DNA from: Naegleria gruberi
Lineage: Eukaryota
Direction: 5' to 3' (one strand)
DNA: 2,695 nucleotides
Assembly: GCA_000004985.1 (NCBI GenBank)
Contig: GG739251.1
In this document: positions 1-2,695 of the stretch, one piece after another
Layout of the letters: every line of letters starts with the position of its first letter
Position numbering within the stretch: position 1 is the first letter of the stretch
The notes under the pieces: generated by a model
What the model was told of the DNA's origin: nothing
Database searches by the model: none
Seen by the model: only the letters and a program-made list of their open reading frames with translations
Made by a program: the position numbers and the translations under genes

Positions 1-151
1 GTCTATAGTAAATGGTGGAATTGACATCTCAACATCTTTACCAAAATTCATGAAATTGATATCATATGCTACATAGAGTTTCTACATGTCATGGTATCTA
101 TTTCAGTGAAAGTGGAGTTGTTTCTGGAGCATTCAGATTTCCATTAATTCT

Positions 152-394
152 CTAAGAACCAATCCATGAGATTTCCTTAACATTGGATCCTGACATTTCC
201 TCTTCTAAAAAATGAAATGTGGCTGCATGGTCTGTAACTTCACCATCTCGCCAATTTTCAAAGAAGTTCGTTCCAACAACACATTCTCCAACCTTGTATG
301 GAGTGACATCTTGTCCAATTTAAACAAGTTCACCGACACCTTCTGATAATGGAATATATCACAGGTGAATTTTGTGTTTCATCTCTTCATCTTA
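152..394 (-). pseudogene. Possible gene relic or pseudogene: a minus-strand reading frame with a coding-like codon pattern, interrupted by three in-frame stops
   Basis: In one minus-strand frame the translation reads ...DEEMKHKIHL(TGA)YIPLSEGVGELV(TAA)IGQDVTPYKVGECVVGTNFFENWRDGEVTDHAATFHFLEEEMSGSNVKEISWIGS(TAG). On plus-strand coordinates the stops are at 392-394, 359-361, 320-322 and 152-154. The 55-codon open stretch (plus 155-319) has G at the first codon position in 24 of 55 codons (44%), a strong RNY coding signature. The overlapping plus-strand 44-aa ORF (212-346) has only 16%. There is no ATG that would give an intact ORF, and no yeast intron signals (GTATGT/TACTAAC) are present to splice the stops out. 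I could not assign a family. Confidence 0.2.
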
Positions 395-605: not shown

Positions 606-613
606 TATAAATA
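606..613 (+). promoter_or_regulatory. Consensus TATA box (TATAAATA)
   Basis: An exact TATAAATA, 25 nt upstream of the ATG at 638. An AGGGG stress-response-element-like pentamer lies at 505-509, about 100 bp further upstream. Confidence 0.3.
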
Positions 614-637
614 GATTTCAATAATTGTCAAAATGCA

Positions 638-1012
638 ATGAAAGGATTACGTGATGTACATGTTAAGGTCAAACATGATTATACACCAAACAATACAAAC
701 TATTATCAAACACCATCTCATGATAGATATTTACTTGCAATATCATTTTGCATTTTTGTTGATCACTTTGTTCATAAGAATTACTCCATGCTTAGTGACA
801 ACTTGTTGGATTATTCAAAGAAGATTATGGAGAAAATTAATCATCCACTGATTGTTCGTGTTGTGCCATATATACGTACAATGCTGGATTGCTCGTTGGA
901 ATCTACACAATATTTCATAGCAACGATTGAAAGCATTCTGGATCCTACAATAGATCTTTCATTTGATTTAGAAGTAAGAAACCAAACGCAATTCAAATCG
1001 TTCCTTCAATAA
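638..1012 (+). CDS. Hypothetical 124-aa protein (from the supplied ORF track); no recognisable family
   Basis: An ATG at 638 and a TAA at 1010-1012. A 124-codon open frame in 33% GC DNA has a per-start probability of about 7e-5 (roughly 0.3 expected in the window), so it is only mildly significant. Glycine codons at first position are weakly enriched (about 21%). The ORF contains three CTG codons, which are rare in yeasts. The TATA box at 606-613 lies only 25 nt upstream, so this ATG may not be on the transcript. The nested 66-aa ORF at 651-851 is in another frame and is judged spurious. Confidence 0.35.
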   Translation: MKGLRDVHVKVKHDYTPNNTNYYQTPSHDRYLLAISFCIFVDHFVHKNYSMLSDNLLDYSKKIMEKINHPLIVRVVPYIRTMLDCSLESTQYFIATIESILDPTIDLSFDLEVRNQTQFKSFLQ

Positions 1013-1638: not shown

Positions 1639-2695
1639 ATGAAGATAACACCCACCACTGCAAGTGTTATAGAAAATCATAAGGAGGACCAGAGTATTGC
1701 ATCTTTCTCTGATGATGGGTCCTTCTTTGGCACTGGAAAGAAAACAACTTGTTGCTCTTTAAAGACATTTATAATTGTCTCAATGATAATGCTTGTCTTG
1801 TTGTGTTCTGTTTCTATCTATGTCTCTGTATTTGTATTGATGAATCAATCAGTGGATGAACTAACTGAAAATGTTCTTGGTTTGCTTGAAGAAAAGATGA
1901 GTGTTTATATTGACTCGGTTTTGAACGAAATGAAAAATACTGGCATGACGATGGCAGATGGTATAGGAATTGGAAAACAAGGTAAACAGGAAATTGTCTA
2001 CTCTTATCAACCTCCTGGTTTCATTGGCTCAATTCGTGATACCTATTTGTTGAATGGTACTCTTCTTGTGTTAAATGAAACTATTGATTATACTCCTTAC
2101 AATGTGGCAAAGAAGGACTTTTACTATGTTGCTGTGAGTGAAGCAGCTAGAATTGGGAAGGAGGGAGCTTTCAGTTATCCTTACATTGTTACAAACGGAA
2201 CCTTGTCCATTTCATTTGGTGCCAAGGTGTATGACCAACAATTATTCGCTCAAGGAACCAAACATTTGAAAGGTATTGCAAGAATTGTCAAGCCACTTTC
2301 TGGTATTAGTGATTTTCTTGAGAAGAAGGTCCAAGTCTTCGACCAAGGTTTTGTAATTATCAAAGAAAGCTCAAACGACTATGTAATAGCTGGCAGTATC
2401 AATTGTACAACATTTGATGAAAAGTCAAGATTGAGTATTTTTGATATTTCGGCTAGAAATGCAGGCAAGTTAATGAAAGATATCAATTCAACTATTGGTG
2501 ATATCAGTAAGCTACCAAAAGGTACTTCAATTTCCTCAAATGGTGTTGATTATCTTGTGCGACATGTTGTTTACGAATTTGAAAATATCAAATGGGATAT
2601 GTATGTCATTGTAGTAACACAAGATATTTTGCAAACCACTCACATTAGTATTGGTGTTTCGGTTGGTGTTGCCGTTTTGATTACGCTTATTGGTA
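1639..2695 (+). CDS. SLN1: 5'-partial-in-window CDS (start present, no stop; continues past base 2695). It encodes a two-pass membrane glycoprotein: cytoplasmic N-tail, TM1, ectodomain of about 267 aa, TM2. Best interpretation is the N-terminal sensor domain of an Sln1-type osmosensing hybrid histidine kinase.
   Basis: Direct translation shows the ATG at 1639-1641 is the first in-frame ATG after an in-frame TAA at 1552-1554. From there 352 sense codons run with no stop to the window edge; in 33% GC sequence the chance of this at random is about 1e-12. The protein begins MKITPTTASVIENHKEDQSIASFSDDGSFFGTGKKTTCCSLKT, followed by the hydrophobic stretch FIIVSMIMLVLLCSVSIYVSVFVLM. Next comes an ectodomain with sequons N69-Q-S, N139-G-T, N146-E-T, N186-G-T, N255-C-T and N283-S-T. 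It ends ...NIKWDMYVIVVTQDILQTTH and then the hydrophobic ISIGVSVGVAVLITLIG. Codon usage is typical of yeast: GGT 14, GGA 7, GGC 5, GGG 2; Arg is mostly AGA; Gln is CAA 10 to CAG 2; none of the 27 Leu codons is CTG. The layout TM, roughly 270-aa glycosylated ectodomain, TM, beginning within 70 residues of the N-terminus, matches what is established for fungal Sln1. The motifs AKVYD and W..V.IVVTQ followed by TM2 resemble Sln1 as I remember it, but that recollection is unverified. Confidence that this is a real CDS is high; confidence in the SLN1 identity is about 0.45. Confidence 0.8.
   Translation, partial: MKITPTTASVIENHKEDQSIASFSDDGSFFGTGKKTTCCSLKTFIIVSMIMLVLLCSVSIYVSVFVLMNQSVDELTENVLGLLEEKMSVYIDSVLNEMKNTGMTMADGIGIGKQGKQEIVYSYQPPGFIGSIRDTYLLNGTLLVLNETIDYTPYNVAKKDFYYVAVSEAARIGKEGAFSYPYIVTNGTLSISFGAKVYDQQLFAQGTKHLKGIARIVKPLSGISDFLEKKVQVFDQGFVIIKESSNDYVIAGSINCTTFDEKSRLSIFDISARNAGKLMKDINSTIGDISKLPKGTSISSNGVDYLVRHVVYEFENIKWDMYVIVVTQDILQTTHISIGVSVGVAVLITLIG
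1765..1842 (+). other. Predicted transmembrane helix 1 of the 1639+ CDS (residues about 43-68, TFIIVSMIMLVLLCSVSIYVSVFVLM)
   Basis: A run of about 24 uncharged hydrophobic residues. Lys residues and a CC pair lie on the N-terminal (cytoplasmic) side. On the C-terminal side there is an N-glycosylation sequon, consistent with an N-in orientation. Confidence 0.7.
1843..2643 (+). other. Predicted extracellular (lumenal) sensor domain, about 267 aa, between the two TM helices
   Basis: A hydrophilic domain with six N-x-S/T sequons lying between two hydrophobic helices. A heptad-like segment immediately follows TM1 (VDELTENVLGLLEEKMSVYIDSVLNEMKN), which could be a coiled-coil. Confidence 0.6.
2644..2694 (+). 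other. Predicted transmembrane helix 2 (ISIGVSVGVAVLITLIG...), continuing past the window end
   Basis: Seventeen consecutive hydrophobic or small residues (I, V, G, A, L) directly after a polar segment. The window ends inside the helix. Confidence 0.65.

What the first reader, a model, noticed from the sequence alone, without database searches (positions are those of the whole stretch)
1639..2695. Largest gene in the window is missing from the ORF track: a 352-codon open frame running off the right edge
Translating by hand from the ATG at 1639 gives an uninterrupted 352-codon frame (plus one base) to the window end. The track presumably dropped it because there is no stop codon inside the window. 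This is by far the strongest coding signal present and it changes how the whole right half of the window should be read.
Basis: seen in the sequence. Interest (0 to 1): 0.6.

Follow-up and report, generated by a model that had tools for sequence, protein, structure and literature searches.

The report
Truncated Naegleria dCache receptor-cyclase-like gene
The long open frame is real and is the front half (tail, membrane anchor, extracellular double-Cache sensor, start of second membrane helix) of an ordinary Naegleria gruberi receptor gene cut off by the end of a 2.7-kb contig; its relatives carry a cyclase-like, not a histidine-kinase, output.

Summary
Observation confirmed. Window 1639-2694 (+) is an unbroken 352-codon frame (open from 1555; 380 codons, against a maximum of 146 in 1000 shuffles). 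The other five frames carry 15-28 stops. The ORF lister skips it only because it runs off the end.

The window is an entire 2695-bp Naegleria gruberi contig, and the product is already in NCBI as "predicted protein, partial" (100% identity).

The window encodes a short cytoplasmic tail, TM1, an extracellular double-Cache (dCache) sensor and the first half of TM2. The AlphaFold model has pLDDT 85, and all top PDB fold matches are dCache ligand-binding domains.

Relatives form a family seen so far only in Heterolobosea (Naegleria spp., Willaertia), 750-870 aa long. After TM2 they continue with a HAMP-like segment and a class III cyclase-homology domain. The family aligns end to end with bacterial dCache-HAMP-adenylate cyclases (hhalign E 6.5e-48). 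No histidine-kinase or receiver domain appears in any relative. The "Sln1-type, 1000-1200 aa" reading is therefore right only for sensor topology and fold.

Two wrinkles:
- The family's cyclase domain lacks the canonical catalytic residues.
- This copy alone has a clean 117-nt in-frame deletion that removes helix α2 and strands β1-β2 of the distal sensor module.

Verdict: an ordinary, already annotated gene of low interest.

The parts
1639..2694 (+). 5'-complete, 3'-truncated coding sequence (352 codons; base 2695 is the first base of codon 353). It matches the NCBI 'predicted protein, partial [Naegleria gruberi]' (P0001).
   Evidence: Translation without stops. 380-codon open stretch against a shuffle maximum of 146. 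100% identity to P0001 on a 2695-bp contig.
1639..1767 (+). Predicted cytoplasmic N-terminal tail (aa 1-43), disordered.
   Evidence: AlphaFold pLDDT below 50 for residues 9-36. Relatives have poorly conserved tails of similar or greater length ahead of TM1.
1768..1842 (+). Transmembrane helix 1 (about aa 44-68, FIIVSMIMLVLLCSVSIYVSVFVLM), continuous with the long stalk helix of the sensor.
   Evidence: Kyte-Doolittle 19-residue windows reach 2.7. The model has one helix from 41 to 108.
1843..2643 (+). Extracellular double-Cache (dCache) sensor domain (about aa 69-335): stalk helix, membrane-distal and membrane-proximal α/β modules, and six N-x-S/T sequons.
   Evidence: AlphaFold model with pLDDT 85 and pTM 0.76. 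Foldseek against PDB gave 84 hits at E<=1e-3, and all top hits are dCache ligand-binding domains: 3li9 at 4.9e-8, Mlp24 6ior at 1.4e-7 with target TM 0.63-0.65, plus PctA and a DGC (7k5n). 11 of 35 family members touch Pfam dCache_1, best 4.9e-10. Sequons listed.
1957..1989 (+). Junction of a 117-nt (39-aa) in-frame deletion relative to all other family members (break between nt 1958 and 1959). A low-complexity linker, D-GIGIGKQGKQ, remains.
   Evidence: Protein alignment with L001 and L002. 33 of 33 other members that cover this segment have 75-87 residues where the window has 41. The DNA alignment shows a clean gap. pLDDT is below 50 at residues 111-114. The missing elements correspond to α2 (136-150), β1 (153-158) and β2 (163-170) of the P0004 model.
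2644..2694 (+). First half of transmembrane helix 2 (aa 336-352, ISIGVSVGVAVLITLIG), cut by the contig end.
   Evidence: Hydropathy. In L001/P0002 the same helix continues as VLFGITLSLIII before RPITFL. The model helix 327-351 runs to the end.

Best explanation
Window 1639-2694 is the 5' part of a Naegleria gruberi gene. It belongs to a family of type-I-like two-TM receptors found here only in Heterolobosea. The family architecture is: cytoplasmic tail, TM1, extracellular dCache sensor, TM2, HAMP-like segment, disordered linker, class III cyclase-homology domain, helical tail (about 750-870 aa).

The window holds everything up to the middle of TM2, and the contig ends there.

Shown:
- The frame is coding.
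- The ectodomain has the dCache fold.
- The family is homologous over its whole length to bacterial dCache-HAMP-adenylate/guanylate cyclases.

Inferred, by analogy with bacterial dCache receptors:
- A small-molecule ligand binds the extracellular sensor.
- The conformational change passes through TM2 and the HAMP-like hairpin to a dimeric cyclase-homology domain.

In all close relatives that domain lacks the first metal-binding Asp, the substrate Lys, and mostly the transition-state Asn and Arg. The output is therefore more likely regulatory, either as a pseudo-cyclase or as the non-catalytic partner of a heterodimer, than autonomous cAMP/cGMP synthesis.

This particular copy also lacks helix α2 and strands β1-β2 of the distal (ligand-binding) module, so its sensing function may be altered or lost.
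For: - Coding frame.
- Identity and organism.
- Family size and protein lengths: (159 hits at E<=1e-3, 51 at E<=1e-30). Names: all 19 of the 20 close hits looked up that carry an organism name are Naegleria gruberi, N. lovaniensis, N. fowleri or Willaertia magna, and several are labelled 'Guanylate cyclase domain-containing protein' by UniRef.
- dCache fold of the window product. Weak but recurrent Pfam dCache_1 hits in relatives.
- Cyclase-homology domain in relatives: the family profile against PDB sequences hits AC10 at 7e-11, RhGC at 6e-9, plus AC8, AC9 and CyaB. Pfam Guanylate_cyc matches 14 of 35 members. The P0004 model against PDB gives Cya2 TM 0.81 at rmsd 3.0, with CyaB, CyaC and Rv1625c also matching.
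- Whole-length homology to bacterial dCache_1+HAMP+Guanylate_cyc proteins: hhalign probability 100%, E 6.5e-48, 653 columns.
- The closest relative (L001, 61% identity) is a complete 758-aa gene with this architecture once a 46-nt intron is removed.
- Degenerate catalytic positions.
Against: - The part of this specific gene after TM2 is not in the window. I could not find it elsewhere, so its output domain is inferred only from relatives that are at most 61% identical.
- The window protein itself gets no Pfam hit.
- The catalytic-residue calls rest on alignments at about 15% identity. MAFFT and hhalign disagree on the position of the second metal Asp.
- The unique 39-aa deletion and the location on a tiny unplaced contig leave open that this copy is non-functional.
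- No expression data were available.
Confidence: 0.87

Rival explanations
1. One reading: the frame is the N-terminal sensor half of an Sln1-type hybrid histidine kinase of 1000-1200 aa (TM1, extracellular domain, TM2, then HisKA, HATPase_c and a receiver domain).
For: The topology (TM1, roughly 270-aa ectodomain, TM2) and the dCache fold match what Upadhyay et al. 2016 report for Sln1. Some top structural matches are ectodomains of histidine kinases (3li9, 3lib). N. gruberi does encode 24 histidine kinases, most predicted to be membrane-bound (PMC6324907).
Against: None of the 44 relatives scanned against Pfam (35 family members and 9 distant ones) shows HisKA, HATPase_c or Response_reg, and neither do the 10 bacterial relatives. 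The closest relative (61% identity) continues into a cyclase-homology domain and ends at 758 aa. The family profile hits only cyclases in the PDB.
Confidence: 0.03
2. The family assignment is the same, but this copy is a decaying or incomplete paralogue. That is, a pseudogene or assembly fragment with no working product, its frame still open only because the damage is recent.
For: It has a unique, clean 117-nt in-frame deletion that removes α2-β1-β2 of the distal sensor module present in 33 of 33 other members. It lies on a 2.7-kb unplaced contig that ends mid-gene. No continuation was found. The closest annotated N. gruberi paralogue is only about 31% identical, so it is not simply an allele of a placed gene.
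Against: 352 codons stay open in a 34%-GC sequence in which random frames close within tens of codons. Every nearly invariant family position within the window is retained: G212, L220, G237, G276, Y305, N316, W319. The deletion is in frame, and AlphaFold still builds a confident two-module domain, although such models are insensitive to destabilising deletions.
Confidence: 0.25
3. The family assignment is the same, but the output domain is a catalytically active adenylyl or guanylyl cyclase. The protein would then be a true receptor cyclase making cAMP or cGMP on ligand binding.
For: UniRef labels several relatives 'Guanylate cyclase domain-containing protein'. The fold and overall homology to active class III cyclases are strong. 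Naegleria is reported to have at least 81 cyclases, many membrane-bound (PMC9928731). The second metal-binding position is Asp or Glu in 17 of 23 members under the MAFFT alignment.
Against: In the 23 close members, the first metal Asp is present in 0 of 23, the substrate Lys in 0 of 23, the transition-state Asn in 2 of 23 and the Arg in 1 of 23. The same losses are visible in the hhalign consensus. The best PDB sequence match is to the second (C2) domain of soluble AC10, which from my own knowledge is the half that does not supply the metal-binding Asp residues.
Confidence: 0.15

Closest known systems
Bacterial dCache_1 - HAMP - class III adenylate/guanylate cyclases (for example P0110 = MEW6536308.1, Candidatus Auribacterota MAG, and P0085, P0086, P0118)
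   Same: Same architecture and topology along the whole length: TM1, dCache, TM2, HAMP, cyclase-homology domain. hhalign probability 100%, E 6.5e-48 over 653 columns.
   Different: The bacterial proteins pass Pfam thresholds for all three domains and keep the canonical motifs FxDIxGFT, KxxGD, RIGIHTG and GDxVNxASR. The heterolobosean family is so divergent that Pfam mostly misses it, it lacks most catalytic residues, and it has a 60-aa disordered linker and an extra C-terminal helical domain. The window copy also lacks α2-β1-β2 of the distal Cache module.
The single Naegleria 'bacterial-type adenylate cyclase' with a Cache domain noted by Upadhyay et al. 2016 (PMC4822843)
   Same: Same organism group and the same domain combination, Cache plus cyclase.
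   Different: That paper found only one such protein with Pfam-style models. Here at least six N. gruberi paralogues (the window protein, P0007, P0009, P0012, P0016, P0026), plus many in N. lovaniensis, N. fowleri and Willaertia, share the dCache ectodomain below Pfam's threshold. I did not establish which of them, if any, is the protein in that paper.
Yeast Sln1 osmosensor (hybrid histidine kinase)
   Same: Two-TM topology with an extracellular double Cache domain (per PMC4822843).
   Different: Sln1's output is HisKA-HATPase_c-REC. No kinase or receiver domain occurs in this family, and family members are 750-870 aa long.
dCache ligand-binding domains of chemoreceptors (V. cholerae Mlp24/Mlp37, P. 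aeruginosa PctA/B/C, C. jejuni Tlp3)
   Same: Best structural matches to the window product (target TM up to 0.65, E down to 1e-7).
   Different: Sequence identity is 9-16%. By eye, the amino-acid-binding motif of PctA (Y121, R126, W128, Y144, D173; PMC8915833) is not kept: the window has Y154, K159 and F161, with no Asp at the D173-equivalent. This was not formally tested. The output domain also differs (an MCP signalling domain).
Other protist receptor-type cyclases (trypanosomatid receptor adenylate cyclases, Dictyostelium ACG)
   Same: Membrane receptors that couple an extracellular sensor to a class III cyclase domain. Both are mentioned in PMC9928731.
   Different: From my own knowledge, not tested here: those proteins use different ectodomains (periplasmic-binding-protein-like or CHASE) and have catalytically competent domains.

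Membership tests
dCache_1 (double Cache extracellular sensor; Pfam PF02743) | Extracytoplasmic location between two transmembrane helices | tested here: met
   Hydropathy peaks at aa 44-68 and from aa 336 to the end. Model helices 41-108 and 327-351 flank the domain.
dCache_1 (double Cache extracellular sensor; Pfam PF02743) | Fold: long N-terminal stalk helix followed by two PAS-like α/β modules (membrane-distal and membrane-proximal) | tested here: met
   AlphaFold model with pLDDT 85. 84 PDB matches at E<=1e-3, and all the top ones are dCache domains. Caveat: the distal module lacks α2, β1 and β2 relative to all relatives.
dCache_1 (double Cache extracellular sensor; Pfam PF02743) | Sequence match to the Pfam model at the gathering score (45 bits) | tested here: not met
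   The window protein has no hit even at E<=10. Relatives give mostly sub-threshold hits of 16-28 bits. 11 of 35 match at E<=0.05, best 4.9e-10. Membership therefore rests on fold and profile-profile homology, not on Pfam.
Class III nucleotidyl cyclase (Pfam PF00211 Guanylate_cyc) | Presence of the cyclase-homology domain in this gene | not testable with these tools
   The contig ends in TM2. No continuation was found. In relatives the domain is present.
Class III nucleotidyl cyclase (Pfam PF00211 Guanylate_cyc) | Canonical catalytic set: two metal-binding Asp, substrate-specifying Lys (or Glu), transition-state Asn and Arg | tested here: not met
   Tested in 23 close relatives aligned to a canonical cyclase (P0129). 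First Asp 0/23, Lys 0/23, Asn 2/23, Arg 1/23. Second Asp position is Asp or Glu in 17/23, but the alignment there is ambiguous. The family therefore works from a cyclase scaffold but should not be filed as an active cyclase.
HAMP linker (Pfam PF00672) | About 50-aa helix-loop-helix directly after TM2, starting with a conserved Pro | tested here: inconclusive
   This lies beyond the window. In relatives the segment 'RP(I/V)..L...F..IK..DL......F.E.' aligns column for column with the Pfam-verified HAMP of the bacterial proteins and models as two helices. However, no family member hits Pfam HAMP at E<=0.05.
Sln1-type hybrid histidine kinase | HisKA + HATPase_c kinase core and a C-terminal receiver domain | tested here: not met
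   Absent from all 35 family members and from the distant relatives scanned. The family profile hits no kinase in the PDB. For the window gene itself the region is missing.
Sln1-type hybrid histidine kinase | Two-TM sensor with an extracellular double Cache domain | tested here: met
   The assignment of dCache to Sln1 is taken from PMC4822843, not tested here.

The most novel reading that the evidence does not exclude
Heterolobosean amoebae (Naegleria, Willaertia) carry an expanded, previously under-recognised family of dozens of dCache receptors whose class III cyclase domain has lost its catalytic residues. These receptors would signal as pseudo-enzymes, for example by heterodimerising with and gating one of the many active Naegleria cyclases. 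The window copy, with the β1-β2 hairpin of its ligand-binding module deleted, would be a natural ligand-blind or constitutive variant.
Probability: 0.3. Interest if true: 0.45.

Novelty: new member of a known kind. Interest (0 to 1): 0.2.

Why it matters
For the scan, the finding corrects the reading of the right 40% of the window. That stretch is coding sequence for a membrane receptor, not intergenic DNA.

It also shows the blind spot of an ORF track that drops frames running off the edge.

Biologically it adds a functional label (dCache sensor of a receptor cyclase-like protein) to a database entry currently called only 'predicted protein, partial'.

Cache-type extracellular sensors in Naegleria also appear to be more numerous than the single example reported in 2016, because most fall below Pfam thresholds.

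None of this is surprising for an organism known to encode roughly a hundred cyclases. The gene itself is ordinary and incomplete.

Tried and rejected
1. Pfam on the window protein found nothing beyond a noise hit to DUF5963 at E 0.26. A phmmer search against PDB sequences found nothing.

2. Word-seeded homology searches found only three family members. The family appeared only in the exhaustive HMMER search.

3. A phmmer search of P0002's cytoplasmic part against PDB returned only immunoglobulin CH3 domains (E 4.6e-4, around 'CSVIHVRLHNY' against 'CSVLHEGLHNH'). I rejected this as a chance match. It falls in a linker that is poorly conserved and disordered in the family, and Ig chains are heavily over-represented in the PDB.

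4. An exact look-up of P0001's contig failed because it is not on record.

5. I looked for a fragment that could be the missing 3' half of this gene. No retrieved protein overlaps the window's C-terminal end at high identity. A metagenome scan with the protein found nothing, and an exact 34-nt match to the right end found nothing.

6. Protein-like fragments on the minus strand at about 150-380 and the + ORF 638-1012 have no Pfam hits, and the minus-strand fragment has no homologue. I rejected the idea that ORF 638-1012 is an upstream exon of the receptor gene, because Met1 at 1639 aligns with the start of the relatives.

7. I considered and rejected an alternative frame or strand over 1639-2694. 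Each of the other five frames has 15-28 stops.
Full report
**Observation**

The window is 2695 bases long with 34% G+C. From the ATG at 1639, the + frame runs 352 codons to 2694 without a stop. The open stretch begins at 1555, right after a TAA, and there is no other in-frame ATG before 1639.

Over the same interval the other five frames contain 15-28 stops each. In 1000 shuffles of the window, the longest open stretch in any frame averaged 84 codons and never exceeded 146, against 380 observed. Codon-position composition is typical of coding sequence.

The mechanical ORF list omits the frame because it lists only ORFs that close inside the sequence.

**Where it comes from**

The translated frame is 100% identical to an NCBI protein named 'predicted protein, partial [Naegleria gruberi]' (351 aa). 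That protein's only contig is 2695 bp long. The window is therefore a complete small contig of the N. gruberi assembly. The gene is already annotated, without a function, and this record cannot be extended to the right.

**What the window encodes**

- Hydropathy shows one strong transmembrane segment at about aa 44-68 and a second beginning at aa 336 and running to the edge.
- Pfam and PDB sequence searches with the fragment alone were empty.
- With a 35-sequence family alignment, AlphaFold2 gave a confident model (mean pLDDT 85, pTM 0.76). It has a 68-residue helix (TM1 plus stalk), two α/β modules, and a final helix entering TM2. Low confidence is confined to the N-terminal tail and residues 111-114.
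- Foldseek against the PDB returned 84 matches at E<=1e-3. All the top ones are double-Cache (dCache) extracellular ligand-binding domains of histidine kinases, chemoreceptors and a diguanylate cyclase (3li9 at 4.9e-8; Mlp24 at 1.4e-7 with target TM 0.63-0.65; PctA; 7k5n).
- Six N-x-S/T sequons lie in this region, consistent with an exposed ectodomain. This last point is an inference.

**What lies beyond the edge**

Word-seeded searches found only two relatives, both on short metagenome contigs. A prokaryotic gene caller had split each of them.

- In L001, removing a 46-nt GT..AG intron (983-1028) directly after 'QPPGFIG' joins two calls into one complete 758-aa gene. It is 61% identical to the window protein over the shared part.
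- L002 has a short in-frame intron.

An exhaustive HMMER search with a profile of the window protein plus P0002 found 159 proteins at E<=1e-3 and 51 at E<=1e-30. Most are 650-870 aa long. I looked up the 20 closest. The 19 that carry an organism name are all from Naegleria gruberi, N. lovaniensis, N. fowleri or Willaertia magna, and UniRef calls several of them 'Guanylate cyclase domain-containing protein'.

Evidence on the family's domains:

- Individually these proteins barely touch Pfam. Of 35 members, 14 match Guanylate_cyc (best 2.4e-6) and 11 match dCache_1 (best 4.9e-10), and there is nothing kinase-like.
- The family profile hits solved class III cyclase catalytic domains: AC10 at 7e-11, rhodopsin-guanylyl cyclase at 6e-9, plus AC8, AC9 and CyaB.
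- More distant hits are bacterial proteins with Pfam-verified dCache_1 + HAMP + Guanylate_cyc.
- A profile-profile comparison of the heterolobosean family with ten of those bacterial proteins gives probability 100% and E 6.5e-48 over 653 aligned columns, from TM1 to the end of the cyclase domain.
- A full-length model of the N. lovaniensis member P0004 (pLDDT 80) shows dCache, TM2, a two-helix HAMP-like hairpin, a disordered 58-residue linker, an α/β domain and a helical tail. The α/β domain superposes on Cya2 (target TM 0.81, rmsd 3.0 Å), CyaB, CyaC, Rv1625c and RhGC.

**Mechanism**

Shown: the gene belongs to a dCache - TM - HAMP-like - cyclase-homology receptor family.

Inferred from what is established for bacterial dCache receptors: ligand binding in the ectodomain is transmitted through TM2 and the HAMP-like hairpin to a dimeric cytoplasmic domain.

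I aligned 23 close family members to a canonical cyclase. The results were:

| Catalytic position | Members that keep it |
|---|---|
| First metal-binding Asp | 0 of 23 |
| Substrate-specifying Lys | 0 of 23 |
| Transition-state Asn | 2 of 23 |
| Transition-state Arg | 1 of 23 |
| Second metal-binding Asp (as Asp or Glu) | 17 of 23 |

hhalign aligns the hairpin carrying the second metal site differently from MAFFT, so that position is ambiguous. The hhalign consensus shows the same losses at the other positions.

The family is therefore best described as carrying a degenerate, probably non-catalytic, cyclase-homology domain. It may act as a regulatory partner. The alignments are at about 15% identity, so this needs an enzymatic test.

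**A peculiarity of this copy**

Between 'MAD' and 'IGKQ' the window protein lacks 39 residues. All 33 other family members that cover this segment have them (75-87 residues against 41 in the window). At the DNA level it is a clean 117-nt in-frame gap between nt 1958 and 1959 relative to L001 and L002.

In the P0004 model the missing piece forms helix α2 and strands β1-β2 of the membrane-distal module, which in characterised dCache receptors is the usual ligand-binding module. The junction is the only low-confidence spot inside the window model's ectodomain.

Together with the tiny contig, this keeps open the possibility that the copy is a decaying or mis-assembled paralogue. Against that, the frame is intact and all nearly invariant family residues are retained.

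The sensor half does resemble Sln1. Upadhyay et al. 2016 assign a double Cache domain to Sln1's extracellular region (PMC4822843), and N. gruberi has 24 histidine kinases, most predicted to be membrane-bound (PMC6324907).

The output does not fit. No relative has HisKA, HATPase_c or a receiver domain, and full-length members are about 750-870 aa.

**Novelty**

The ORF is already in NCBI, and the architecture is a well-known bacterial design. [quoted passage not shown]

The present searches show at least six N. gruberi paralogues and many more in sister species with the same ectodomain. Most are invisible to Pfam thresholds. That is a modest extension, not a new kind of system. Naegleria is already known for a very large cyclase repertoire, at least 81 (PMC9928731).

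**Dead ends**

- The continuation of this gene could not be found.
- Weak immunoglobulin-CH3 hits to a linker of P0002 are judged to be chance.
- The upstream 133-codon open stretch (611-1009) is mildly unusual (p about 0.009), and its codon usage favours its own frame. It has no Pfam match and could not be searched further.
- Minus-strand protein-like fragments near the left edge have no relatives.

**Verdict**

The feature is the truncated 5' half of an ordinary, already annotated Naegleria receptor gene of the dCache-HAMP-cyclase-homology type. Interest is low.

Noticed in passing
window 1957-1989 (break at 1958|1959): Clean 117-nt in-frame deletion (39 aa) relative to all 33 other family members that cover the segment. 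It removes helix α2 and strands β1-β2 of the distal Cache module and leaves a low-complexity 'GIGIGKQGKQ' linker.
   Followed up: yes
window 611-1012 (+), ATG at 638: 133-codon open stretch (124-aa ORF from the ATG), seen in only about 0.9% of shuffles of the upstream 1.6 kb. Its codon usage fits its own frame better than the shifted frames. It may be a small orphan gene or exon.
   Followed up: partly
window about 150-380 (-): Protein-like fragments interrupted by stops on the minus strand (for example 'IGQDVTPYKVGECVVGTNFFENWRDGEVTDHAATFHFLEEE'). No Pfam hit and no homologue sharing words, so probably chance.
   Followed up: yes
L001 983-1028; L002 about 915-950: The two metagenome relatives carry very short GT..AG introns (46 nt, and about 36 nt in frame) that the window gene lacks. 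A prokaryotic gene caller split both genes into two proteins, so database entries P0002 and P0003 are fragments of longer genes.
   Followed up: yes
relatives P0002, P0004-P0049 (cytoplasmic domain; not in window): The cyclase-homology domain of the whole heterolobosean family lacks the first metal-binding Asp and the substrate Lys in 23 of 23 members, and mostly lacks the transition-state Asn and Arg. It looks like a pseudo-cyclase domain, although UniRef labels the proteins 'Guanylate cyclase domain-containing'.
   Followed up: partly
P0002 residues about 295-365 (L001; not in window): A linker segment gives weak phmmer hits to immunoglobulin CH3 domains (best E 4.6e-4; 'CSVIHVRLHNY' against 'CSVLHEGLHNH'). 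Judged to be chance because the segment is unconserved and disordered in the family.
   Followed up: partly
distant relatives P0052, P0066, P0067, P0081 (metagenomes) and P0062 (N. gruberi XP_002679910): Variants of the same cytoplasmic module are fused to other N-terminal parts: ankyrin repeats ahead of a dCache-like region, or teneurin-type EGF repeats. This suggests domain shuffling around the TM2-HAMP-cyclase-like cassette.
   Followed up: no
literature versus family: Upadhyay et al. 2016 report a Cache domain in only one Naegleria protein. At least six N. gruberi paralogues here have the dCache ectodomain by fold and profile-profile evidence but fall below Pfam's threshold.
   Followed up: partly
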